64,000 nt of DNA, taken from the NCBI GenBank assembly GCA_001821055.1, contig MHRT01000005.1, forward strand, positions 43,533 to 107,532, in the 5' to 3' direction. The position numbers and the translations under genes are program-made. Shown piece after piece: positions 2,481 through 10,830 of this stretch. Numbering within the stretch: position 1 is the stretch's first letter; every line of letters starts with the position of its first letter. The notes under the pieces are model-generated. The model was not told the origin of the DNA and made no database searches. It saw only the letters and a program-made list of their open reading frames with translations. Origin of the DNA: Candidatus Taylorbacteria bacterium RIFCSPHIGHO2_12_FULL_45_16 (GTDB lineage Bacteria > Patescibacteriota > Minisyncoccia > Phycocordibacterales > PALSA-1337).

Positions 2481-3575
2481 TTACCAGATTACTTTTTCCT
2501 GTTCAAGCGAGACACCTTTTCCTTTGATCAAATGATTCTCGTGCAGACTCATCCTATCCAGATGAACTCCGGATCCATCCCTGGTGATGTGCAATTCGGC
2601 AATATTTCCGACCATGACATCTGGCGAGAAATACTGATCAAACAGAAGGTTGCCGAGTGAATAGAGTACCGGCACGTCTCCGATCCATTCCTGTTCCATG
2701 ATCACATGTGGGTGAGCGCCGATGACAGCGTCAGCCCCGGCGGAGATAAATGCTTGAGTTTGCGACTTCATTTTCGCCGATGGAATCGTGGTATATTCTT
2801 CGCCCCAATGCGGCATGACGATGGTGAAAACATTCGGTCCGGATACACGTTTGATTTCGGCAATCACACGATCTATGCCCAGTTGAAACGAGTGATATCC
2901 GACGAATGCCACTGTAACCCCATTTTTTTCTATTACGGTCGCGATGGGGGATTTGGTGGCGCTAGTTTTTTCTCTGCTCATCTTCGTGGAAGTGCTATTC
3001 CATGGGTTACCGAACCAGAGTATGCCGGCATCTTCCAGCCAGTCTTGGGTTTCCATAAATCCTAGAAAATTTAAATTGTCAACATGATTATTCGCCAAGT
3101 TAACTATAGTAATGCCGGCGTCTTTTAAGGTCAGGCGTGTTCTCGGCGAAAATGTAAAAGTAAGAACATCCGTGATTTTGTCATTCACCAGTGTTTTTGA
3201 TGGATATGAAGTGATTGGTCCCTCCAGATTGACTGCGACGATATTGGCTTTTTTGAATAGTGAGACAATCGATTCGTCGAATAATGAATCATAGCTGTTG
3301 CGTTCGCCAATGGCGCGAATTCCCCGATCAAACATCACATCACCGCCAACCATTATTGTTAGATTATCCGAGACGGAAGATGATTCGATCGTTATCTTTG
3401 CGGAGGGCATCTGCCCGGATGATTCCAACGTGGCAGCTGTTTGTGGGATTGTTTTAACAAGTATTGTTTCTTGGTCCATTATCTCAATGCCTTTTGTAAT
3501 CAAATACATTGATCCCCAACCAAAGGCGACCACTAGGAATGTGGTTAGAATAGTGCTTAAGGGGTTCGATTTCAT
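2481..3575 (-). CDS. CapA/PgsA-family metallophosphoesterase (poly-gamma-glutamate/capsule biosynthesis-like) with an N-terminal TM anchor
   Basis: Motifs GGDVMFDRG, NLEGPIT, NLANNHVDNL, AHPHVIMEQEW and LGNLLFDQ match the CapA metallophosphatase family. Hydrophobic N-terminus. Confidence 0.8.
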   Translation of the reverse strand: MKSNPLSTILTTFLVVAFGWGSMYLITKGIEIMDQETILVKTIPQTAATLESSGQMPSAKITIESSSVSDNLTIMVGGDVMFDRGIRAIGERNSYDSLFDESIVSLFKKANIVAVNLEGPITSYPSKTLVNDKITDVLTFTFSPRTRLTLKDAGITIVNLANNHVDNLNFLGFMETQDWLEDAGILWFGNPWNSTSTKMSREKTSATKSPIATVIEKNGVTVAFVGYHSFQLGIDRVIAEIKRVSGPNVFTIVMPHWGEEYTTIPSAKMKSQTQAFISAGADAVIGAHPHVIMEQEWIGDVPVLYSLGNLLFDQYFSPDVMVGNIAELHITRDGSGVHLDRMSLHENHLIKGKGVSLEQEKVIW

Positions 3576-3683
3576 AGGACCTCAATAAGGAGACAACGAT
3601 GTCTGAGTTTGGTGAGAATCATGGAGTAAGTATAGCACCATATTTTTGGTTCTAGAATCCGATTCGCAGTTTTTTACGAAATT

Positions 3684-3730
3684 GCTGGGAGCTTGGGATG
3701 ATATCCGAATAGCTTTAAGTTTAGCATAAC
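3684..3730. repeat. Copy 1 of a conserved element of about 45 nt (GCKGGGAGYKTGGGAYGATATCCGAATAGCKTTAAG..GCATAAC) in the 3' UTR of a minus-strand gene
   Basis: Near-identical to the copy at 4439-4480. Both lie just downstream of minus-strand stop codons. Confidence 0.6.
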
Positions 3731-3896
3731 TTCAATACATCTCCATAACCGTGACATAGCTTTTCATTACTATTTTCACGGTTATGTTGGCAAAATCGAG
3801 AATAGCTATAATGCTAATCTATATGATGTACTTGTCGCAAAAAGTAGTTAAAAAGTTTATATGTTGAAATTTTGTCTATTATTTTTTTCCATATTA

Positions 3897-4271
3897 TTAT
3901 ATTTGGTTATTTCTTAATCTCTTTTTTTGCCAGCCAATAGCAAGGGGCAAGATAAAAGTCAAAGCGTAATATAAATACACATCCAGTTTATAATATCCGT
4001 CCGCCGGGTTGAACATTTTTACGAGAAAGAAATAATCAAAAACAGCGGCGATCAAAACCCAGACAACGGCCATTTGCACATAATACTTGAAAGAATCAGC
4101 TTGAACTTTTTTAAATAATACCCAGAGCGCCATAACTATTCCGATTGGCATGATAACCCAGCCGAGCAAGTTTTGTGGCACCGCCTTGAAAAGCAGGATG
4201 CCAAGCGCGTAGCCGATAAGCCAGAGCATAAAACCCCAACCCAAGGCATCTCTGTAAAATTGTTTTGTCAT
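3897..4271 (-). CDS. Small integral membrane protein (about 4 TM), function unknown
   Basis: Four hydrophobic segments. No recognisable catalytic motif. Confidence 0.5.
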   Translation of the reverse strand: MTKQFYRDALGWGFMLWLIGYALGILLFKAVPQNLLGWVIMPIGIVMALWVLFKKVQADSFKYYVQMAVVWVLIAAVFDYFFLVKMFNPADGYYKLDVYLYYALTFILPLAIGWQKKRLRNNQI

Positions 4272-4394
4272 AAAATTATTCCTTAGATTTATTTTCTCGA
4301 CCTATTTTATTGTATCACTTTTGCTACCGAATTTCTTTCGAACGCTTCGGTCAAAAACAAAAGCGTGGCTCAATACCTATTCAAAAACCAATAT

Positions 4395-4414
4395 CAGGTG
4401 CTTGCTTTGGCACC
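4395..4414 (-). terminator. Candidate intrinsic terminator (AGGTGC-loop-GCACCT hairpin, T-rich on minus) downstream of the 4501..5013 gene
   Basis: 6 bp GC-rich stem. On the minus strand it is followed by GATATTGGTTTTTG. Confidence 0.35.
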
Positions 4415-4438
4415 TAAAAATCACGATTTAACACAGAT

Positions 4439-4480
4439 GCGGGGAGTGTGGGACGATATCCGAATAGCGTTAAGCATAAC
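4439..4480. repeat. Copy 2 of the conserved 3'-UTR element of about 45 nt
   Basis: GCGGGGAGTGTGGGACGATATCCGAATAGCGTTAAGCATAAC matches 3684-3730 at about 85% identity. Confidence 0.6.
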
Positions 4481-4500
4481 ATCTATTTGATAAATGCTTT

Positions 4501-5013
4501 CTATTTGGTCATTACTGACGTTGAGGAACTTAGAGCTGGCATAGCGGAGGTAAAACTAGATCTGAACTGATTATCGTCAATTTTGACCGTCTGTGTCATC
4601 AGTGAGGCCGTGACAATAGGAACTAGTGCCGAAACTATTATGGCAATTATTGATATCCAAATGGCTCGATTAGATAACGTCCTTGCTTCTCTAGCGTTTT
4701 CTCTTGCAAATTTCAGTTCCAAAAAATCTATAAAGGTAAATTCTGCATCAAAAGTTAGCATATACATATTATCTGGCGAATTTGCTTGGGAATGGTTACC
4801 GTGTATAAAAAGAAATATGGTTTCACCTTTCGTACTATCATTCCAATTGGAATGATCGCATGCATTTTTAAAGTGTCGCATCACAATACTCCTTTCCCAG
4901 TCTTCTAGATTGAGTTTATTGTTATCAAGTATATCTGCAGACTTAAAACCCTTAGGATATTTTAGGGCAAGTTCGATAACTCTAATATAAAGGCTTTTCT
5001 CCGGCTCTTTCAC
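4501..5013 (-). CDS. Hypothetical protein with a soluble N-terminal domain and a single C-terminal TM helix (tail-anchored)
   Basis: Long ORF. C-terminal segment AIWISIIAIIVSALVPIVTASLM. No recognised family. Confidence 0.45.
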   Translation of the reverse strand: MKEPEKSLYIRVIELALKYPKGFKSADILDNNKLNLEDWERSIVMRHFKNACDHSNWNDSTKGETIFLFIHGNHSQANSPDNMYMLTFDAEFTFIDFLELKFARENAREARTLSNRAIWISIIAIIVSALVPIVTASLMTQTVKIDDNQFRSSFTSAMPALSSSTSVMTK

Positions 5014-5133
5014 ATTATTAAGTCTAGCATATGTATAAACAGAAACCCGCGATCATTGCTGACCGCGGGGGAAATCCGTGAGGACATTAAGAGCTTTCGC
5101 TCCGGTCTCTCTGACCGAGTGGATTAACCACCA

Positions 5134-5811
5134 TTACCAAGGATTGGTGTAAGTGAACAGGACGCCGATCTTCCTCCTGTCTCTGTAATCGCTGGACTCA
5201 TAGACCGAGCGCAGGTGCATCTCGAAGTGCGGATTCAACATCCGGAACTTCATCTTCAGCGAGCGACCATTCTTGGTACTCCACGGGGAGCCATAGAAGC
5301 CGCCGAGAACCCTGCTGTCCGGGAGGACAAGATCTGGGAAGAGAATCAGTGCGGTAGGAGTTTTCTGAAACTCCTCAATTGCGGCGCACCCAACCTCGAA
5401 TAGCGCCTCCGCCTGCTTCGATCGGCACTCATCCTCGTTAGGGAAGCGTTTGTGCCAGTCGAGGTTAGCAACCGCTCTCACGAGAAGTCGCTTTTCCGCT
5501 TCCATGACCACGGCGATTTTGTCTTTCGCCGGTTGTTCGTCTTCGCCGAGTAGGAGTTGAGCGTTGGTGCAGATGCAGGTATCCTCCCTGTACATCATTG
5601 CCTTCACAAAATTATCCACTGCGGCGACCGATTGCTCCGCGTTCTGCGTCTCAAAATCTTGTTTCTCCGGACTGAGTCCGCAGATGCAGTTTTTGGGATA
5701 GTACTTCTCGATGAGGCGGAAGCCGCCATCATAGTTGTACTGGAATGTGCCACGAGAATTGAGGCACTTTTTGAGGGCTGTTCCGAGCTCTTGCCATTGT
5801 TCTTTTTTCAT
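5134..5811 (-). CDS. Hypothetical Cys-rich protein. GC appears elevated (not computed). No recognised family.
   Basis: 225 aa ORF with several Cys (CICG, CIC, C...C). GC appears higher than in neighbouring genes. A terminator-like hairpin (CCCGCGATCATTGCTGACCGCGGG, about 5048-5071) follows on the minus strand. Confidence 0.45.
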   Translation of the reverse strand: MKKEQWQELGTALKKCLNSRGTFQYNYDGGFRLIEKYYPKNCICGLSPEKQDFETQNAEQSVAAVDNFVKAMMYREDTCICTNAQLLLGEDEQPAKDKIAVVMEAEKRLLVRAVANLDWHKRFPNEDECRSKQAEALFEVGCAAIEEFQKTPTALILFPDLVLPDSRVLGGFYGSPWSTKNGRSLKMKFRMLNPHFEMHLRSVYESSDYRDRRKIGVLFTYTNPW

Positions 5812-6063
5812 AATCTATCGTTTCTGTGTTTATTGTTTGTTTGGTTAAATCTAGCTCTCAAAAGGCAAAATTCTACCTTTTCGGAGCTAGACTTAGCTGT
5901 TTCAATGACCTTGACCTTCTGGTACAAGTATAGCATAGTTGAGTATATATGTCAATACTTTGGCGATTTCGTCAAATATGTGCTGTGGCATGGCTCTGTT
6001 AAGCCACCTTGTAAACCACGGTCGGTATTCGCCCCCGCGCCTACAGCACTTTCGGAAAGTGAG

Positions 6064-6087
6064 TCGCCTTCGCTACGCTACGGCGTA
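6064..6087 (+). repeat. 24 nt motif TCGCCTTCGCTACGCTACGGCGTA. Direct-repeat copy A, downstream of the GIY-YIG stop.
   Basis: Matches 6379-6403 with one indel and one mismatch. An inverted partial copy abuts the tRNA-Ser 3' end at 6470-6488. Confidence 0.6.
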
Positions 6088-6136
6088 CCGAGGTGCACAG
6101 AATACTTATAGATAAGGGTATGATTAGATCAATCAG

Positions 6137-6370
6137 CTACATCAAGTGTTTCTTGATAAAAGATCTGCCAGAACCAGATTTTAGGTATTTTTCTAATTCA
6201 AATGCTTTGCATTTGTCATTTATTGCAAGATAAAAATCTAGGCCAACCGGTAAACGATCAGCAGTTGCTGGTACATGTCCTTTCTGATGTCTAGAAATTC
6301 TTTCTCTCAGATCAGTAGTGCAACCAATATAATATCCATCTTTACACTTTAAACTATAAATATAATACAT
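6137..6370 (-). CDS. Free-standing GIY-YIG nuclease domain protein
   Basis: MYYIYSLKCKDGYYIGCTTDLRERISRHQKG is a canonical GIY-YIG motif (GIY...YIG, Arg, and E in RER). The start is placed at the internal Met just before the motif. The ORF track extends it to 6424. Confidence 0.7.
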   Translation of the reverse strand: MYYIYSLKCKDGYYIGCTTDLRERISRHQKGHVPATADRLPVGLDFYLAINDKCKAFELEKYLKSGSGRSFIKKHLM

Positions 6371-6378
6371 ATATTTGA

Positions 6379-6403
6379 ATCGCCTTCGCTTACGCTTCGG
6401 CGT
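6379..6403 (+). repeat. 25 nt motif TCGCCTTCGCTTACGCTTCGGCGTA. Direct-repeat copy B, immediately upstream of the GIY-YIG start.
   Basis: See copy A. Together the two copies bracket the GIY-YIG ORF. Confidence 0.6.
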
Positions 6404-6469
6404 ATTAATAGCGGATATTATCACGCCGTAGCTATGCCGTTGATATAATCTCGCCTACGCACTAATCGT

Positions 6470-6488
6470 GCTTCGGCGTAGCGAAGGC
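6470..6488 (-). repeat. Inverted partial copy (CGCCTTCGCTACGCCGAAG on the minus strand) of the same motif, abutting the tRNA-Ser 3' end
   Basis: The reverse complement of 6470-6488 equals the motif core. Confidence 0.55.
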
Positions 6489-6574
6489 GGAGAGGGGGAG
6501 ATTCGAACTCCCGAGGAGCTTGCGCCCCTGCCGCTTTTCGAAAGCGGTGCATTCGACCACTCTGCCACCTCTCC
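6488..6574 (-). tRNA. tRNA-Ser (anticodon CGA), type II with a long variable arm. CCA not encoded.
   Basis: Reverse complement: acceptor GGAGAGG/CCTCTCC, anticodon stem CCGCT/AGCGG with loop TTCGAAA, long variable arm, T-arm GGGAG/CTCCC with loop TTCGAAT. Confidence 0.85.
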
Positions 6575-6700
6575 TTTTAGTAATTAGTTGTTGGTTTTCT
6601 ATTTATCAGTTACCAGTATACTAGTTCACCGGCAACCAGCAACACCTTAGCATTTTTTGCCATTTTTTCAAAAGATGATAGGATACAGAACACGCATCAA

Positions 6701-6772
6701 GGCCCTATCGTCTAACGGCTAGGACAACGGGTTTTCAATCCGTTAATCGGGGTTCGATTCCCCGTAGGGCTA
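6701..6772 (+). tRNA. tRNA-Glu (anticodon TTC)
   Basis: Acceptor GGCCCTA/TAGGGCT, anticodon stem ACGGG/TCCGT with loop TTTTCAA, T-arm GGGG/CCCC with loop TTCGATT. Confidence 0.8.
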
Positions 6773-6802
6773 CAAGGGAAGACCTGCAATCATCCTGTCA
6801 CT

Positions 6803-7360
6803 GTGGTTACAAAAATGAAATACAAGAAATTAATGGCGATTGGGTTTGTCGTATTTGTGTTGTTTGTATCTGGTTCTTACATCATTTATGCTGTGACTGT
6901 CATATCGATTGATGAAAATACTCCTTATCGGGTTGAACGCGTGCTGGATGGGGATACTTTCATGGTAAAAATTGGTTGGCACGATGTTACTATCCGGATG
7001 CTAGGCATTGATACGCCAGAGACTGTTGATCCAAGAAAGCTGGTACAGTGTTATGGAAAAGAGGCATCTGATGAGACCAAGAGTCTTTTGACTGGCCAAA
7101 AAGTCAGGTTGAAACTGAATCCAAACAGAGAAGAGAGGGATAGATACGGACGCTATTTGGCCTATGTGTATATGAATGGCGCAAACAATTTGTTTGTGAA
7201 TGAATTTCTGCTGGAAAATGGTTATGCGCATGAATATACCTATGGTAAGCCGTACATGTATCAGAAAGAGTTTAGGGAGATCGAAAAAACTGCTAAAGAG
7301 GCGGGGAAGGGTTTGTGGGGAGGGTGTGAGATTACAAGCTCTAAACCCGCAAAGCTATGA
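6803..7360 (+). CDS. Thermonuclease (staphylococcal nuclease/SNase homologue), membrane-anchored or secreted
   Basis: N-terminal TM segment. Motifs DGDTF, GIDTPE and RDRYGRYLAYV are typical of SNase. Confidence 0.8.
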   Translation: MVTKMKYKKLMAIGFVVFVLFVSGSYIIYAVTVISIDENTPYRVERVLDGDTFMVKIGWHDVTIRMLGIDTPETVDPRKLVQCYGKEASDETKSLLTGQKVRLKLNPNREERDRYGRYLAYVYMNGANNLFVNEFLLENGYAHEYTYGKPYMYQKEFREIEKTAKEAGKGLWGGCEITSSKPAKL

Positions 7361-7505
7361 TTATCAAAGATTTTGACAAGTGGAACGAACGAAAGAAGGA
7401 GATAGATTTATCAACAACATCTCGCAGGTATTATCACGAACGAGAAATATTGAAACATGTATATTTGTATACTTATGATAGCAAGATTTAGATTGTCGTC
7501 AATAA

Positions 7506-8423: not shown

Positions 8424-8528
8424 AGTGGGGGAATTGTATCATGTATGATTGACACGTTCAAATAAGTTGACTTTCTTTGAATTGCCTGTAATGTATTAGA
8501 TAAACAATGTTATTTTGAAAGGAAAATC

Positions 8529-9560
8529 ATGAACAATGAAATTTCAGATCTTCGCGGATGTCTTTCGCAACTGAAGACTCTTCAAGGTCGAAGGCGGTAT
8601 TCTGAATCCGAAGAGGAGGCTACTCATTCGACGATGTTTGTCACCAAGAAAGAGGATGAATTTCTCGTTGACGAGATCAGGATTCTCTGCTCAAAGGCAT
8701 ATCGTCGGTTGACGGGAAAGACGCAAGTAACATGTCTGCCTCGAAATCCGCATATCCGCAACCGCCTTACCCATACCATGGAGGTTGTCGCATGCAGTGT
8801 GAACGTATCGGAAATGCTTGGCCTCAATACGAATCTAGTTCGAGCGATTGCTCTTGGGCACGATCTCGGACATGCTCCATTCGGTCATCCTGGAGAGGCA
8901 TACTTGGCGGAACGGACTGGAAAACCTTACACTCACGAGATCATGGGCGTGGTGCTCGTCCAACATATAGAACGGAGGTGCAAAGGATTGAACCTAACGC
9001 ATGAAGTATTAGATGGCATGATGCGGCATTCCGGAAAAAATGTTTCAGACAGCATGACTCCTGAAGCTTGGGTTGTCAGGTATGCCGATAAGTTCGCCTA
9101 CATTTTTGCTGATTACAACGACTTTATCAGAATGCAATGGAAAGTCGATTCCGAACTAGTTTCGTTGATGAATGACTTTGGCGAAAGCCAACGACAACGT
9201 GTTCTAAAAGTCATATTGGAGCTGGCTCGTGAATCTGCGGTTGAGGGAAAAGTATCATTCGTCAAGTGTGATGTAGCCCAAAAATTCAATCGTCTGCGAG
9301 AGCTCATGTATCATGAGTACCCGAAGGTCACATTGCAGAATCCACACAGGGCTCTTGATCCGATCTATGACTTCGTGGACAGATTGAAAATTGGGGATCC
9401 ACTTCTTATCATCAGTTTGATGACGGATCAGGATGTGAACTATCTATTGCAGCAGTACGCGCTCAATTTTGATCATATCCGTTCTACAGCAGTGGGGGAA
9501 CTTATTGAAGTTATCAAGGACAAGAAAATCGATTGCTGTGATCCGGATTTGGACTGGTAG
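8529..9560 (+). CDS. HD-domain phosphohydrolase, dGTP triphosphohydrolase-like
   Basis: HTMEV...GHDLGHAPFGH HD motif and a D...D motif further downstream. AGGA sequence 8 nt upstream of the ATG. Confidence 0.7.
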   Translation: MNNEISDLRGCLSQLKTLQGRRRYSESEEEATHSTMFVTKKEDEFLVDEIRILCSKAYRRLTGKTQVTCLPRNPHIRNRLTHTMEVVACSVNVSEMLGLNTNLVRAIALGHDLGHAPFGHPGEAYLAERTGKPYTHEIMGVVLVQHIERRCKGLNLTHEVLDGMMRHSGKNVSDSMTPEAWVVRYADKFAYIFADYNDFIRMQWKVDSELVSLMNDFGESQRQRVLKVILELARESAVEGKVSFVKCDVAQKFNRLRELMYHEYPKVTLQNPHRALDPIYDFVDRLKIGDPLLIISLMTDQDVNYLLQQYALNFDHIRSTAVGELIEVIKDKKIDCCDPDLDW

Positions 9561-9578
9561 GGCAAGGACAAAACAAAA

Positions 9579-9608
9579 GGGGCCGAAGTGATTCGGTCCC
9601 GATTTTTT
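9579..9608. terminator. Bidirectional intrinsic terminator between the convergent HD gene and ftsZ
   Basis: GGCCGAAGTGATTCGGTCC hairpin followed by GATTTTTTTATT. Confidence 0.5.
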
Positions 9609-9630
9609 TATTACAGTTATTTATTCCAAC

Positions 9631-10830
9631 CTACTTTAACCTACTCCTCCTCAAAAACGCCGGTATCGCGCCCCAATCATCATCGTCATCCTTTTTCTCT
9701 TCTTTTTTGGCTTCAATTTTTTCGGCGGGACTGGTGTCACGCTTTACATCCGACATTGAATTGAAAATCTTACCGCGTTCTGGACGATCGCCTTTTTCGG
9801 CGACATTTTTCATTATGGAAGCAATGGTTGGTTCGGCTGAAACAGGCGATGAGGAGCGAGCGCCGGCGGTATTGCTTTCTGGAAAACCTGTGGCAATAAC
9901 CGTGATCTTGATCTCGTTTTTCTTGAGTTTATCGTCGCGAACCGTACCAAAGATGATTTTCGCTTCGGGGTCAATAGACTCGGTGATAACCTTGGCGGCA
10001 TCCTGTATTTCAAACATGGTTAGGTCTTCACCACCAGCAATCGAGAACAAGACGCCCTTGGAACCGGTGATGGAAACATCCAAAAGTGGACTGTTGATGG
10101 CCGCCTTGGCGGCCTCAATCGCGCGGTTTTCACCGGAAGCCGAACCGATGCCCATAAGGGCCGAACCGGCATTTTCCATGACGGTGCGGATGTCAGCGAA
10201 GTCAATATTGATGAGTCCTGGCGTGGTGATAAGATCCGAAATGCCTTCAACGGCTTGGCGCAGTATTTCGTCGCACATGGCGAAGGCGTTTTTGACCGTG
10301 GTCTCTTTGCTGATGGCTGAAAGAAGCCGGTCGTTCGGTATGACGATGATGGCGTCTACCTCTTTGCGCAACTCTTCAAGAGCTGCTTCGGCGATACGTG
10401 ACCGCTGGCGTCCTTCAAAGAAAAATGGCTTGGTAATCACGGCCACGGTCAGACAGCCGAGTTCTTTGGCGACTCGAGCTACCATTGGCGCCGCGCCGCT
10501 GCATGTGCCGCCGCCGAGTCCGCCGGCGACGAAGACCATGTCCGCGCCCTTGACGATTTCTTGGATTTCATCGCGGGTTTCTTCAACCGCGCGTTTGCCG
10601 AGCTCCGGATTCATGCCCGTGCCCAATCCTCGGGTGATGTTTTTGCCGATGTGAACTCGTTTTTTGGCCAAAGAACGATGTAGATCTTGGGAGTCGGTGT
10701 TAATTGCGATAAAATCAACGCCTCGGACTTTACTTATAATCATGTGATTGACGGCGTTACCGCCGGAACCACCGACGCCAAGGACTTTGATGCGAGCGAA
10801 TGCTTCGATGTCGGGAGTGATGTTGGGCAT
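9631..10830 (-). CDS. ftsZ: Cell division GTPase FtsZ
   Basis: GGGTGSG tubulin signature (GLGGGTCSGAAPMVA). N-terminal VLGVGGSGGNAVNHM. Acidic C-terminal tail. Confidence 0.95.
   Translation of the reverse strand: MPNITPDIEAFARIKVLGVGGSGGNAVNHMIISKVRGVDFIAINTDSQDLHRSLAKKRVHIGKNITRGLGTGMNPELGKRAVEETRDEIQEIVKGADMVFVAGGLGGGTCSGAAPMVARVAKELGCLTVAVITKPFFFEGRQRSRIAEAALEELRKEVDAIIVIPNDRLLSAISKETTVKNAFAMCDEILRQAVEGISDLITTPGLINIDFADIRTVMENAGSALMGIGSASGENRAIEAAKAAINSPLLDVSITGSKGVLFSIAGGEDLTMFEIQDAAKVITESIDPEAKIIFGTVRDDKLKKNEIKITVIATGFPESNTAGARSSSPVSAEPTIASIMKNVAEKGDRPERGKIFNSMSDVKRDTSPAEKIEAKKEEKKDDDDDWGAIPAFLRRSRLK

What the first reader, a model, noticed from the sequence alone, without database searches (positions are those of the whole stretch)
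4272..6574. tRNA-Ser-adjacent islet: a free-standing GIY-YIG nuclease gene bracketed by 24-25 nt direct repeats, with a third inverted copy at the tRNA 3' flank and two unknown proteins
The motif TCGCCTTCGCT(T)ACGCT(A/T)CGGCGTA occurs at 6064-6087 and at 6379-6403, immediately downstream and upstream of a 77 aa GIY-YIG ORF (canonical GIYxxxxxDGYYIG...R...E motif). The element-like unit is about 340 bp. The motif core recurs in inverted orientation at 6470-6488, directly abutting the 3' end of tRNA-Ser(CGA). Free-standing GIY-YIG genes are classic selfish or homing elements. Repeat-bracketing next to a tRNA suggests site-specific insertion or duplication of the target. The islet also contains a 225 aa Cys-rich protein (5134-5811) with its own terminator hairpin that appears GC-rich, a 170 aa tail-anchored protein (4501-5013), and a palindromic hairpin (TCTAGCTC..AAAAGG / CCTTTT..GAGCTAGA, about 5853-5893) upstream of the 225 aa gene. 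None has an assignable function. They could be cargo of the mobile unit, for example a small defense or toxin pair.
Basis: seen in the sequence. Interest (0 to 1): 0.6.

Follow-up and report, generated by a model that had tools for sequence, protein, structure and literature searches.

The report
tRNA-linked structured leader plus mini GIY-YIG nuclease
The three repeats are real: they are the paired arms and a spare copy of a conserved folded GC-rich element that joins the 3' end of a serine tRNA gene to a tiny nuclease gene, a roughly 0.4-kb cassette found at tRNA ends in many ultra-small bacteria and some Bacteroidota, missing from this site in the closest relative, and not found described in the literature or RNA libraries I could search.

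Summary
The motif lies at 6064-6087 and 6380-6404 (+), and its 14-nt core lies inverted at 6476-6489, overlapping the last 4 nt of tRNA-Ser(CGA). These are not target-site duplications. The inverted copy and the upstream copy are the two strands of a 10-14 bp stem. That stem closes a conserved structured element between the tRNA 3' end (…CCGCC) and the ATG of a 77-aa Slx1/YhbQ-type GIY-YIG gene. Of 80 related GIY-YIG loci, 66 have a same-strand tRNA within 400 nt upstream (56 Ser, 8 Trp). Base pairing in the element covaries, wobble pairs favour the tRNA/mRNA strand, and no Rfam family matches. A model built without the window finds the window copy (E about 1e-7). The closest syntenic relative has the same tRNA-Ser(CGA) with neither element nor nuclease. 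Window 3583-6485 is replaced there, and homology stops exactly at the tRNA 3' end. About 9 of 66 loci repeat the tRNA 3' end after the nuclease gene. The best reading is a small selfish, gain-and-loss nuclease cassette riding on tRNA 3' ends. The mechanism is inferred. The 225-aa and 170-aa genes are separate modules of the same variable region, not cargo.

The parts
6486..6574 (-). tRNA-Ser(CGA). Its 3' end ...CUCUCCGCC runs straight into the element, with U in place of A76.
   Evidence: ARAGORN. Rfam tRNA, 56.9 bits. 86.7% identical to the tRNA-Ser(CGA) of the syntenic relative L089.
6378..6493 (-). Structured GC-rich element between the tRNA 3' end and the GIY-YIG start codon. This is an expanded variant of the compact ~65-nt family consensus.
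   Evidence: Covariance model R1 was built from 25 other loci and hits here full-length at 40.8 bits, E=1.3e-7. The minimum-free-energy fold is -50 kcal/mol, z = -4.62.
6476..6489 (-). 5' arm of the closing stem (CGCCUUCGCUACGC). It includes tRNA nucleotides 72-75.
   Evidence: (I5).
6381..6395 (-). 3' arm of the closing stem (GCGUAAGCGAAGGCG). It ends 10 nt before the ATG and contains the SD-like GAAGG.
   Evidence: It corresponds to family consensus GCGAAGGCGG.
6411..6427 (-). 'Hairpin C', GGCG-U-GAU-AAU-AUC-CGC, preceded by CUACG. This is the most conserved core of the family.
   Evidence: A pattern scan finds this hairpin within 400 nt upstream of the gene in 64 of 80 loci, and hardly anywhere else in 537 kb. 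Its pairs covary.
6137..6370 (-). 77-aa minimal GIY-YIG nuclease gene of the Slx1/YhbQ/UPF0213 type.
   Evidence: PF01541, E=1.9e-10. The best solved relatives are 1zg2 and 1ywl, both UPF0213. It is 56-77% identical to 80 genes in other genomes. GC3 is 22%.
6044..6099 (-). Partial second copy of the element downstream of the nuclease gene.
   Evidence: Weak model hit at 15.4 bits, E=0.0013 within 901 nt. Downstream element copies also occur in L056, L061, L066, L082 and L020.
5034..6035 (-). Self-contained 1-kb expression module. It comprises a repeat/promoter block (5917-6035, including the motif GGGGCGAATACCGACCGTGGTTTA at 6012-6035 and TTGACA-17-TATACT at 5955..5927), a leader hairpin at 5846-5895, the 225-aa ORF at 5134-5811, and a terminator at 5046-5069.
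   Evidence: 80.5% DNA identity to L085 1150-2146 in otherwise unrelated surroundings.
4501..5013 (-). 170-aa protein: an N-terminal winged-helix domain plus one C-terminal transmembrane helix.
3583..6485 (.). Variable region with no homology to the syntenic relative. It is bounded by the tRNA-Ser 3' end on one side and the start of the PGA_cap gene on the other. It also holds the 124-aa membrane protein at 3897-4271.
   Evidence: blastn of the window against L089. ORFs of L089.

Best explanation
The repeats belong to a compact cassette of about 0.35-0.45 kb. It consists of the tRNA 3' end (…CCGCC, with A76 replaced), a GC-rich structured leader and a 77-aa Slx1/YhbQ-type GIY-YIG nuclease gene. 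Shown: The cassette is a conserved unit in Patescibacteria and some Bacteroidota. It sits directly behind tRNA-Ser (any anticodon) or tRNA-Trp genes. Its leader has covarying helices with strand-specific G.U pairs, which points to an RNA read in the tRNA/nuclease direction. The cassette is present or absent at orthologous sites, and it is sometimes flanked by direct repeats of the tRNA 3' end and of the element. Inferred: The cassette is a selfish nuclease-gene element. It is transcribed by read-through from the tRNA promoter. The leader marks the tRNA/mRNA boundary and keeps nuclease translation low, because its 3' strand is the SD-like GAAGG and the start codon follows within about 10-20 nt. 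It can switch between a form paired to the tRNA 3' end and a rod-like form. The nuclease promotes breaks or recombination at tRNA 3' ends or at the folded element. A cassette copy that carries its own tRNA 3' end is then copied or recombined in, displacing the old 3' end downstream. In this window, the inverted copy and copy 2 form the closing stem, and copy 1 is the leftover partial element on the far side of the gene.
For: Linkage: 66 of 80 GIY-YIG loci have a same-strand tRNA within 400 nt upstream (56 Ser, 8 Trp, 1 UCA-reading, 1 Asp), and 9 of the remaining 14 lie at contig ends. By my estimate, chance linkage is about 0.1% per locus. Junction: 58 of 69 linked tRNAs read …CCGCC|TTCG. By contrast, 15 of 19 unlinked tRNA-Ser/Trp genes in the same loci have unrelated trailers, often with CCA or CA. 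Structure: Fold I has 89.8% of cells paired, against about 40% when the partners are slid, and 8 pairs change on both sides. Fold II has 95.2% paired, a covariation score of 0.368 against 0.177 in shuffles, and 24 G.U against 4 C.A. Independent recognition: model R1 finds the window copy at E=1.3e-7, and nearly all other hits lie just upstream of GIY-YIG genes. Gain and loss: L089 has the same tRNA-Val, PGA_cap, tRNA-Ser(CGA), tRNA-Glu, SNase and TrxB synteny, but its tRNA is followed by AACACGAG…, then HIT, methyltransferase and MBL genes, and it gives no model hit. L066, a more distant genome, has a cassette at the same tRNA-Glu/tRNA-Ser(CGA) pair. Insertion scars: partial tRNA 3' ends (10-21 nt) or whole elements are repeated after the gene in L066, L071, L061, L082, L078, L021, L062, L052 and L056, some retaining …GCCA. 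The protein tree does not sort by tRNA type. Many hits lie at contig ends. The nuclease gene has GC3 of 22% in a 46% GC window.
Against: No cleavage, transcription or mobility was measured. The window itself has no recognisable tRNA 3'-end remnant after the gene. The whole 2.9-kb region differs from L089, so a single clean insertion of the cassette cannot be delimited here. The UPF0213/Slx1 family is usually regarded as repair or structure-specific nucleases inherited vertically (PMC1564403). The proteins are well conserved (56-77% identity), which also fits a host function. The window has one copy and we cannot see the rest of the genome. The 77-aa tree is weakly resolved. Two competing folds both covary, so the active structure is unsettled.
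Confidence: 0.6

Rival explanations
1. Host operon, not a selfish element. The GIY-YIG protein is a housekeeping nuclease, in repair or RNA metabolism, that is deliberately co-expressed with tRNA-Ser/Trp. The element is an ordinary processing or regulatory leader. Differences between genomes reflect loss and rearrangement.
For: The gene shows strong sequence conservation and an intact catalytic motif set. Sense-strand RNA covariation supports a functional leader. The linkage persists across two phyla. A published Slx1-like/TrmH fusion hints at RNA metabolism (PMC1564403).
Against: The cassette is absent from the closest syntenic relative at the same tRNA. It is attached to any of four Ser isoacceptors or to Trp with no phylogenetic sorting. 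tRNA 3' ends and elements are duplicated after the gene. Solo elements and pseudo-tRNA debris occur. The gene's base composition is foreign. Assemblies break at the cassette.
Confidence: 0.22
2. A ~340-bp unit inserted site-specifically next to the tRNA, duplicating a 24-nt target that now brackets it, and the 225-aa and 170-aa proteins are its cargo (for example a defence or toxin pair).
For: Direct copies do bracket the gene. The islet is variable. A relative with an 82%-identical 225-aa gene also has a GIY-YIG gene nearby. One 170-aa homolog directly follows a cassette.
Against: Copy 2 pairs with the inverted copy as a conserved stem that is present in dozens of loci with different flanks. 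The empty site in L089 contains no copy of the motif. None of the 80 GIY-YIG loci has a 225-aa or 170-aa homolog. There is no PADLOC, Pfam, PHROG or NCBIfam match. The 225-aa module has its own promoter and terminator and its own boundaries at 5034-6035.
Confidence: 0.05
3. DNA-level element, a REP/RAYT-like logic. The GC-rich palindromes act as folded single-stranded or cruciform DNA, and this is the substrate of the structure-specific Slx1-like nuclease. The pairing is selected in DNA rather than in RNA.
For: Slx1-family enzymes cut branched DNA (PMC1564403). Hairpin modules occur on both sides of the gene and in tandem. Four segments covary together like a repeated palindrome. The 77-aa protein has no DNA-binding domain of its own.
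Against: In the best-supported fold, G.U outnumbers C.A by 24 to 4 on the sense strand, which is the expected signature of an RNA. The element always has one orientation relative to the tRNA and the gene. In 537 kb of loci the hairpins are not dispersed away from the cassette.
Confidence: 0.13

Closest known systems
Free-standing homing endonuclease genes in phage tRNA clusters (T4 SegB, a GIY-YIG enzyme; T5 F-Tfl enzymes)
   Same: A nuclease gene without an intron, lodged beside conserved tRNA genes and behaving as an optional, gain-and-loss insert. SegB is discussed in PMC13096335. The rest is from my own knowledge.
   Different: Seg-type enzymes are about 200-250 aa and have DNA-binding domains, whereas this protein is a bare 77-aa catalytic domain of the Slx1/UPF0213 branch. 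This cassette is cellular, not phage: tblastn found no phage hit. It also has a conserved structured leader fused to the tRNA 3' end.
Prokaryotic Slx1-like / UPF0213 (YhbQ, BH0048, EF2693) stand-alone GIY-YIG proteins
   Same: The best sequence matches among solved structures are 1zg2 (E=2.5e-5) and 1ywl. The protein is a minimal single domain with no Asn after the catalytic Glu, as described for this branch (PMC1564403).
   Different: That family is described as vertically inherited repair-type nucleases. No tRNA linkage or associated RNA element is reported in the paper read.
tRNA-gene-targeting integrative islands
   Same: The insert begins exactly at a tRNA 3' end, the tRNA stays intact, and in related loci the displaced tRNA 3' end is repeated on the far side.
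   Different: There is no integrase or recombinase. The unit is about 0.4 kb rather than kilobases. The repeats include a structured element.
Nuclease genes paired with a conserved structured RNA in mobile elements (IscB/HEARO and TnpB omega RNAs)
   Same: A small nuclease gene is always accompanied by an adjacent, covarying structured non-coding element.
   Different: The nuclease fold differs (GIY-YIG, not RuvC/HNH). The RNA lies upstream and is fused to a tRNA. There is no evidence of a guide segment, and no Rfam match.
REP elements with their RAYT transposase
   Same: GC-rich palindromic modules flank a small nuclease-type gene.
   Different: RAYTs are HUH tyrosine transposases and REPs are dispersed genome-wide. 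Here the hairpins stay at the cassette, and the wobble pattern points to RNA.
Functional tRNA 3' trailers and tRNA-mRNA co-transcripts (for example 3'ETS-leuZ and the tufB operon in E. coli; from my own knowledge)
   Same: Sequence immediately after a tRNA is used as a functional RNA or as the 5' part of an mRNA.
   Different: Those are host regulatory arrangements in single lineages, not a portable tRNA-end + leader + nuclease unit.

Membership tests
GIY-YIG nuclease superfamily (PF01541) | Profile match above the curated cutoff, with the YxY…YxG…R…E motif order | tested here: met
   E=1.9e-10, 41.3 bits against a cutoff of 22.6, covering profile positions 1-72 of 78. The sequence reads YIYSL…YYIGCT…RERISRH…FELEKY.
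Slx1 / UPF0213 (YhbQ) branch | Closest to UPF0213 proteins; stand-alone minimal domain; no conserved Asn C-terminal to the catalytic Glu | tested here: met
   The top PDB sequence hits are 1zg2_A (E=2.5e-5) and 1ywl_A. The protein is 77 aa and has no Asn after the conserved Glu in FELEKY (sequence). The criterion is taken from PMC1564403.
Classical GIY-YIG homing endonucleases (I-TevI / Seg type) | N-terminal GIY-YIG domain plus a linker and C-terminal DNA-binding modules (NUMOD, HTH or zinc finger), about 200-270 aa | tested here: not met
   Only 77 aa and no other Pfam domain. The PHROG homing-endonuclease matches are weak and partial (E=1.3e-4 and 0.086).
Classical GIY-YIG homing endonucleases (I-TevI / Seg type) | Site-specific cleavage of the cognate empty allele, and homing | not testable with these tools
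   This needs enzyme assays or crosses. The only evidence here is an empty orthologous site.
tRNA-targeting integrative island | A tyrosine or serine recombinase encoded in the island | tested here: not met
   The four main ORFs (3897-6424) were scanned and none gave a recombinase match in Pfam, NCBIfam or PHROGs. The remaining ORFs in the interval are short or overlap these genes and were not scanned.
tRNA-targeting integrative island | A direct repeat of the tRNA 3' end at the distal boundary | tested here: not met
   In the window, the alignment of the tRNA to the region downstream of the gene is not better than shuffles (239 of 1000 at or above the observed score). The feature is met in about 9 of 66 related loci.
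Any curated RNA family (Rfam 15) | A covariance-model match to the element | tested here: not met
   The window 3500-7500 at E<=5 gives only the tRNAs plus a sub-threshold sX4 hit that spans the tRNA. Sixteen loci at gathering score give only tRNA, tmRNA and RNase P. A compact element at E<=10 gives only chance-level miRNA-type hits.
New tRNA-linked element family (model R1, defined here) | Starts at …CCGCC of a tRNA, contains hairpin C and the GCGAAGGCG strand, and is followed by a GIY-YIG start codon | tested here: met
   The window region 6378-6493 (-) matches R1 full-length at 40.8 bits, E=1.3e-7, and the window was not in the training set. Hairpin C is at 6411-6427. The ATG is at 6370.
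REP/RAYT system | An HUH (Y1) transposase gene flanked by dispersed REP palindromes | tested here: not met
   The nuclease is GIY-YIG. The motif is confined to the cassette in 64 kb of window and 537 kb of loci.
Known anti-phage defence or toxin-antitoxin pair (225-aa and 170-aa proteins) | A match to a defence or TA family, and conserved adjacency of the two genes | tested here: not met
   PADLOC, Pfam, NCBIfam and PHROGs give no significant hit. The two families are never adjacent in the other contexts fetched.

The most novel reading that the evidence does not exclude
The cassette is a new class of minimal mobile element. A 77-aa GIY-YIG domain has no DNA-binding domain of its own, so it takes its target specificity from the adjacent structured nucleic acid. 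One strand of that structure (GAAGGCGG) is complementary to the …CCGCC(UUC) end shared by tRNA-Ser and tRNA-Trp genes. On this reading it is a structure- or RNA-assisted nuclease that homes to tRNA 3' ends, and the two covarying folds act as the switch between a tRNA-paired state and a free state.
Probability: 0.12. Interest if true: 0.9.

Novelty: new variant of a known kind. Interest (0 to 1): 0.68.

Why it matters
If this holds, a very common but under-annotated small gene of CPR/Patescibacteria belongs to a portable unit that uses tRNA genes both as landing site and probably as promoter. The public records for this contig do not even call it as a gene. The unit carries a previously uncatalogued RNA structure with strong covariation and two alternative folds. 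That would add a new RNA motif to the catalogue. It would explain frequent assembly breaks and the odd GC-rich 'peptide tails' found next to GIY-YIG genes in these genomes. It would also give the enigmatic bacterial Slx1/YhbQ family a concrete, testable biological context. Because the cassette also occurs in cultured Chitinophagaceae (Niastella, Flavihumibacter), the questions can be addressed by experiment.

Tried and rejected
1. A degenerate pseudo-tRNA downstream of the nuclease gene (the CACUUUCCGAAAGUG hairpin). The alignment to tRNA-Ser is no better than shuffles, and neither ARAGORN nor Rfam calls a tRNA there.
2. A phage origin or vector. tblastn against 50,697 phage records found nothing. 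The 11 IMG/VR hits to the hairpin-C pattern lie inside an unrelated phage coding sequence, with no tRNA or GIY-YIG nearby.
4. An antisense-strand RNA. This was suggested by the excess of C.A over G.U in my first pairing scheme. It was dropped when the RNAalifold scheme turned those positions into covarying pairs, giving G.U 24 against C.A 4 on the sense strand.
5. The closing stem as a simple intrinsic terminator. No T-run follows it and the scan does not call one.
6. afdb50 fold search: the library was unavailable.
7. Literature. Searches for GIY-YIG combined with tRNA-Ser, 'downstream of tRNA', CPR, Patescibacteria, YhbQ and 'structured RNA' found no description of this arrangement.


Full report
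**What is in the window.** The window comes from a Rifle groundwater Parcubacteria genome (GCA_001821115.1, contig MHRZ01000001.1, named Candidatus Taylorbacteria by NCBI).
- Copy 1 is at 6064-6087.
- Copy 2 is at 6380-6404, one base to the right of the stated position.
- The 14-nt core lies inverted at 6476-6489.
- No other copy exists in 64 kb, and essentially none is expected by chance.

The inverted core overlaps the last four bases of tRNA-Ser(CGA), 6486-6574 on the minus strand. Between copies 1 and 2 lies a 77-aa ORF (6137-6370, minus strand). It matches the GIY-YIG domain above Pfam's cutoff and is the only such gene in the window. Public gene calls for this contig skip it.

**What the repeats are.** Read on the minus strand, which is the strand of both the tRNA and the nuclease gene, the inverted copy and copy 2 are complementary. 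They form a 10-14 bp stem. Its 5' strand starts inside the tRNA's 3' end (CGCCUUCGCUACGC), and its 3' strand (GCGUAAGCGAAGGCG) ends 10 nt before the ATG. The 127-nt interval folds at -50 kcal/mol, z = -4.6. The two copies are therefore the two arms of one structure, not two ends of an insert.

**The same layout elsewhere.** A scan of one genome per species for relatives of the 77-aa protein returned 519 hits, and the 80 best (56-77% identity) were kept.
- They are mostly Patescibacteria, plus several Bacteroidota. Two are cultured isolates: Niastella yeongjuensis and Flavihumibacter solisilvae.
- In 66 of the 80, a tRNA gene lies on the same strand within 400 nt upstream: 56 tRNA-Ser (anticodons UGA, GCU, GGA and CGA), 8 tRNA-Trp, one UCA-reading tRNA and one tRNA-Asp.
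- Nine of the other 14 lie at a contig end, so their upstream sequence is missing.
- In the linked loci the sequence runs …CCGCC|UUCG, then a hairpin of variable sequence, then CUUCG or CUACG.
- Next comes a near-invariant hairpin, GGCG(U)GAC-RMA-GUCCGCC ('hairpin C'), then a linker, then GCGAAGGCGG, and after about 10-20 nt the ATG.
- Hairpin C occurs within 400 nt upstream of the gene in 64 of 80 loci, and almost nowhere else in 537 kb.
- In the same loci, 15 of 19 tRNA-Ser/Trp genes not followed by a GIY-YIG gene have unrelated trailers, often …GCCA or …GCA. The element is therefore tied to the nuclease gene and is not a general tRNA-Ser trailer.
- Four of the 19 unlinked tRNAs carry an element-like trailer with no adjacent gene; the model also finds a gene-less copy after a degenerate tRNA fragment in L007 and repeated copies downstream of the nuclease gene in L061 and L066.

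**Is it a structure?** I aligned 25 compact elements (A1 and A4).

| Scheme | Pairing | Cells paired | Covariation | G.U vs C.A |
|---|---|---|---|---|
| Fold I (mine) | Stem with the tRNA 3' end, a local hairpin, hairpin C | 89.8% (about 40% when partners are slid) | score 0.186; eight pairs change on both sides | 16 vs 40 |
| Fold II (RNAalifold, independent) | A rod; the two strands of the local hairpin pair with the linker and the 3' end; RWA/GAA internal loop; hairpin C at the tip | 95.2% | score 0.368, against 0.177 in shuffles | 24 vs 4 |

- Positions that look like C.A mismatches in Fold I are covarying pairs in Fold II. One example is the first loop base (C/U), which covaries with G/A in GCGAA(G/A)GCG.
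- The one-sided wobble pattern in Fold II is what an RNA made in the tRNA/nuclease direction would show.
- Both folds carry covariation that the other does not explain, so the element may switch between them. I could not resolve this point.
- In the window, the 3' arm carries both partner segments in series, which gives the single long stem.
- No Rfam 15 family matches the element, either in the window at permissive thresholds, in 16 loci, or in a compact copy.
- A covariance model built only from other loci finds the window's element full-length at 40.8 bits, E about 1e-7.
- The model also gives a weak hit on the region around copy 1 (6044-6099). Copy 1 is therefore a partial second element downstream of the gene, as also seen in L056, L061, L066, L082 and L020.

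**Is it an insertion?** A metagenome contig, L089, shares synteny with the window: tRNA-Val, PGA_cap, tRNA-Ser(CGA), tRNA-Glu, SNase and TrxB. Protein identities are 63-80%.
- In L089 the tRNA-Ser ends …CUCUCCGCC and is followed by AACACGAG… and then by HIT, methyltransferase and metallo-beta-lactamase-fold genes.
- L089 has no element, no GIY-YIG gene and no model hit.
- DNA homology between the two stops exactly at window 6486 and resumes at 3582.
- A more distant genome, L066, has a cassette at the same tRNA-Glu/tRNA-Ser(CGA) pair.
- In about 9 of 66 loci, the last 10-21 nt of the tRNA are repeated a few to about 130 nt after the nuclease stop codon. Sometimes the whole element follows. In L021 and L062 the repeat still carries …GCCA.
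- This pattern is expected if a unit carrying its own tRNA 3' end recombined into the tRNA gene and pushed the old end downstream.
- The protein tree does not group by tRNA type (77 aa gives weak resolution).
- Many hits sit at contig ends.
- The window's nuclease gene has GC3 of 22% in a 46% GC window.
- The window itself shows no tRNA remnant after the gene. Because the whole 2.9 kb differs from L089, the cassette's own right-hand boundary cannot be fixed here.

**What kind of nuclease.** The closest solved relatives by sequence are the UPF0213 proteins BH0048 (1zg2) and EF2693 (1ywl). This is the bacterial Slx1-like branch, described as the minimal GIY-YIG form lacking the C-terminal Asn and thought to act in repair (PMC1564403). 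The protein is not an I-TevI/Seg-type homing enzyme, because it has no DNA-binding module. How a 77-aa domain would find a target is the main mechanistic gap. The adjacent structure is the obvious candidate helper, but that is inference.

**Most likely mechanism.**
- Shown: the anatomy, the tRNA linkage, the covariation, the presence/absence at an orthologous site, and the tRNA-end repeats.
- Inferred: read-through transcription from the tRNA promoter, the leader marking the tRNA/mRNA boundary, the leader sequestering the SD-like GAAGG close to the start codon, and nuclease-stimulated recombination at tRNA 3' ends.
- The restrained translation would resemble what is known for phage homing endonuclease genes (from my own knowledge).
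- I put 0.6 on the selfish-cassette reading, about 0.2 on a host operon, and about 0.13 on a DNA-level hairpin substrate.

**The other genes of the islet.** None of the 80 GIY-YIG loci carries a relative of the 225-aa or the 170-aa protein.

The 225-aa family:
- It is rare: 7 proteins among 5.8 billion, and 24 clusters among 1.84 billion.
- It has no Pfam domain.
- The confident model (pLDDT 85) has no significant structural neighbour.
- Window 5034-6035 is 80.5% identical in DNA to L085, although the surroundings are unrelated. This segment comprises the promoter block, the leader hairpin, the ORF and the terminator.
- The first ~120 nt of the module recur three times in L085, ahead of three different genes.
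- All four family members examined keep a long leader hairpin of different sequence.
- L085 and L086 also have a different GIY-YIG gene (46% identity) with a GC-rich hairpin module just upstream. Such cassettes therefore recur at the edge of this variable region.

The 170-aa protein:
- It is a winged-helix domain with a C-terminal membrane helix.
- Its few homologs sit directly after a tRNA-Ser in two of three other contexts, once with a GIY-YIG cassette in between.
- I read this as conserved or recurrent tRNA-Ser-proximal placement, not as evidence that it is cargo.

**Novelty.** Free-standing nuclease genes beside tRNA genes and tRNA-targeted islands are known kinds. A portable unit made of a tRNA 3' end, a covarying bistable leader and a bare Slx1-type GIY-YIG domain is not in Rfam, and I did not find it in the searchable literature. 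Subscription-only papers could not be searched. I therefore rate it a new variant of a known kind. There is a minority possibility of about 0.12 that the structure supplies target recognition, which would make it a new class of element.

Noticed in passing
window 5034-6035; L085 1150-2146, 356-379 and 3690-3807: The 225-aa gene sits in a self-contained 1-kb module that is 80.5% identical in DNA to a contig with otherwise unrelated neighbours. The module's ~120-nt promoter block (GGGGCGAATAMCGACCGTGGTTTA … TTGACA-17-TATACT) occurs three times in that contig, ahead of three different genes. In L086, two of the copies flank a 205-aa PsbP-like gene as 38-nt direct repeats.
   Followed up: partly
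window 5846-5895; L085, L083 and L087 leaders: Every 225-aa family gene examined has a long, near-perfect hairpin in its 5' leader, about 35-50 nt before the start codon. The sequence differs in each (window z = -5.65). The structure is kept while the sequence drifts.
   Followed up: partly
[not shown]
   Followed up: partly
L089 5145-5849 (between tRNA-Glu and tRNA-Ser): The syntenic relative has a 234-aa ORF inserted between the two tRNA genes, giving a spacer of 819 nt against 126 nt in the window. Only a weak HTH match was found. The stretch LLIGAALYWGEGTK looks LAGLIDADG-like to me, but I did not test this.
   Followed up: no
window about 8443-9646: This segment, which holds an HD-domain gene, has no counterpart in the syntenic relative L089. 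It is a second indel between the two genomes.
   Followed up: no
window 6137-6370: The GIY-YIG ORF is not called as a gene in the public records of this contig (NCBI and JGI gene lists). This small family may be widely under-annotated.
   Followed up: no
L007 3462-3660: Between two tRNA-Ser genes lies a degenerate tRNA 3' half, followed by one and a half tandem copies of the element with no nuclease gene. This looks like debris of repeated cassette activity.
   Followed up: partly
alignment A4, columns 13-28 and 59-72: Four segments of the element covary together, so two mutually exclusive folds are both supported. One pairs with the tRNA 3' end and the other is a rod with an RWA/GAA internal loop. 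The purpose of the apparent switch is unknown.
   Followed up: partly
window 3897-6370: The islet is compositionally mosaic. GC3 is 22% for GIY-YIG, 67% for the 225-aa gene, 33% for the 170-aa gene and 48% for the 124-aa gene, against 43-60% in flanking core genes.
   Followed up: yes
L085 3024-3428: The relative's variable region also encodes a PemK/MazF-like toxin domain protein (E=1.2e-4, just under Pfam's cutoff).
   Followed up: no
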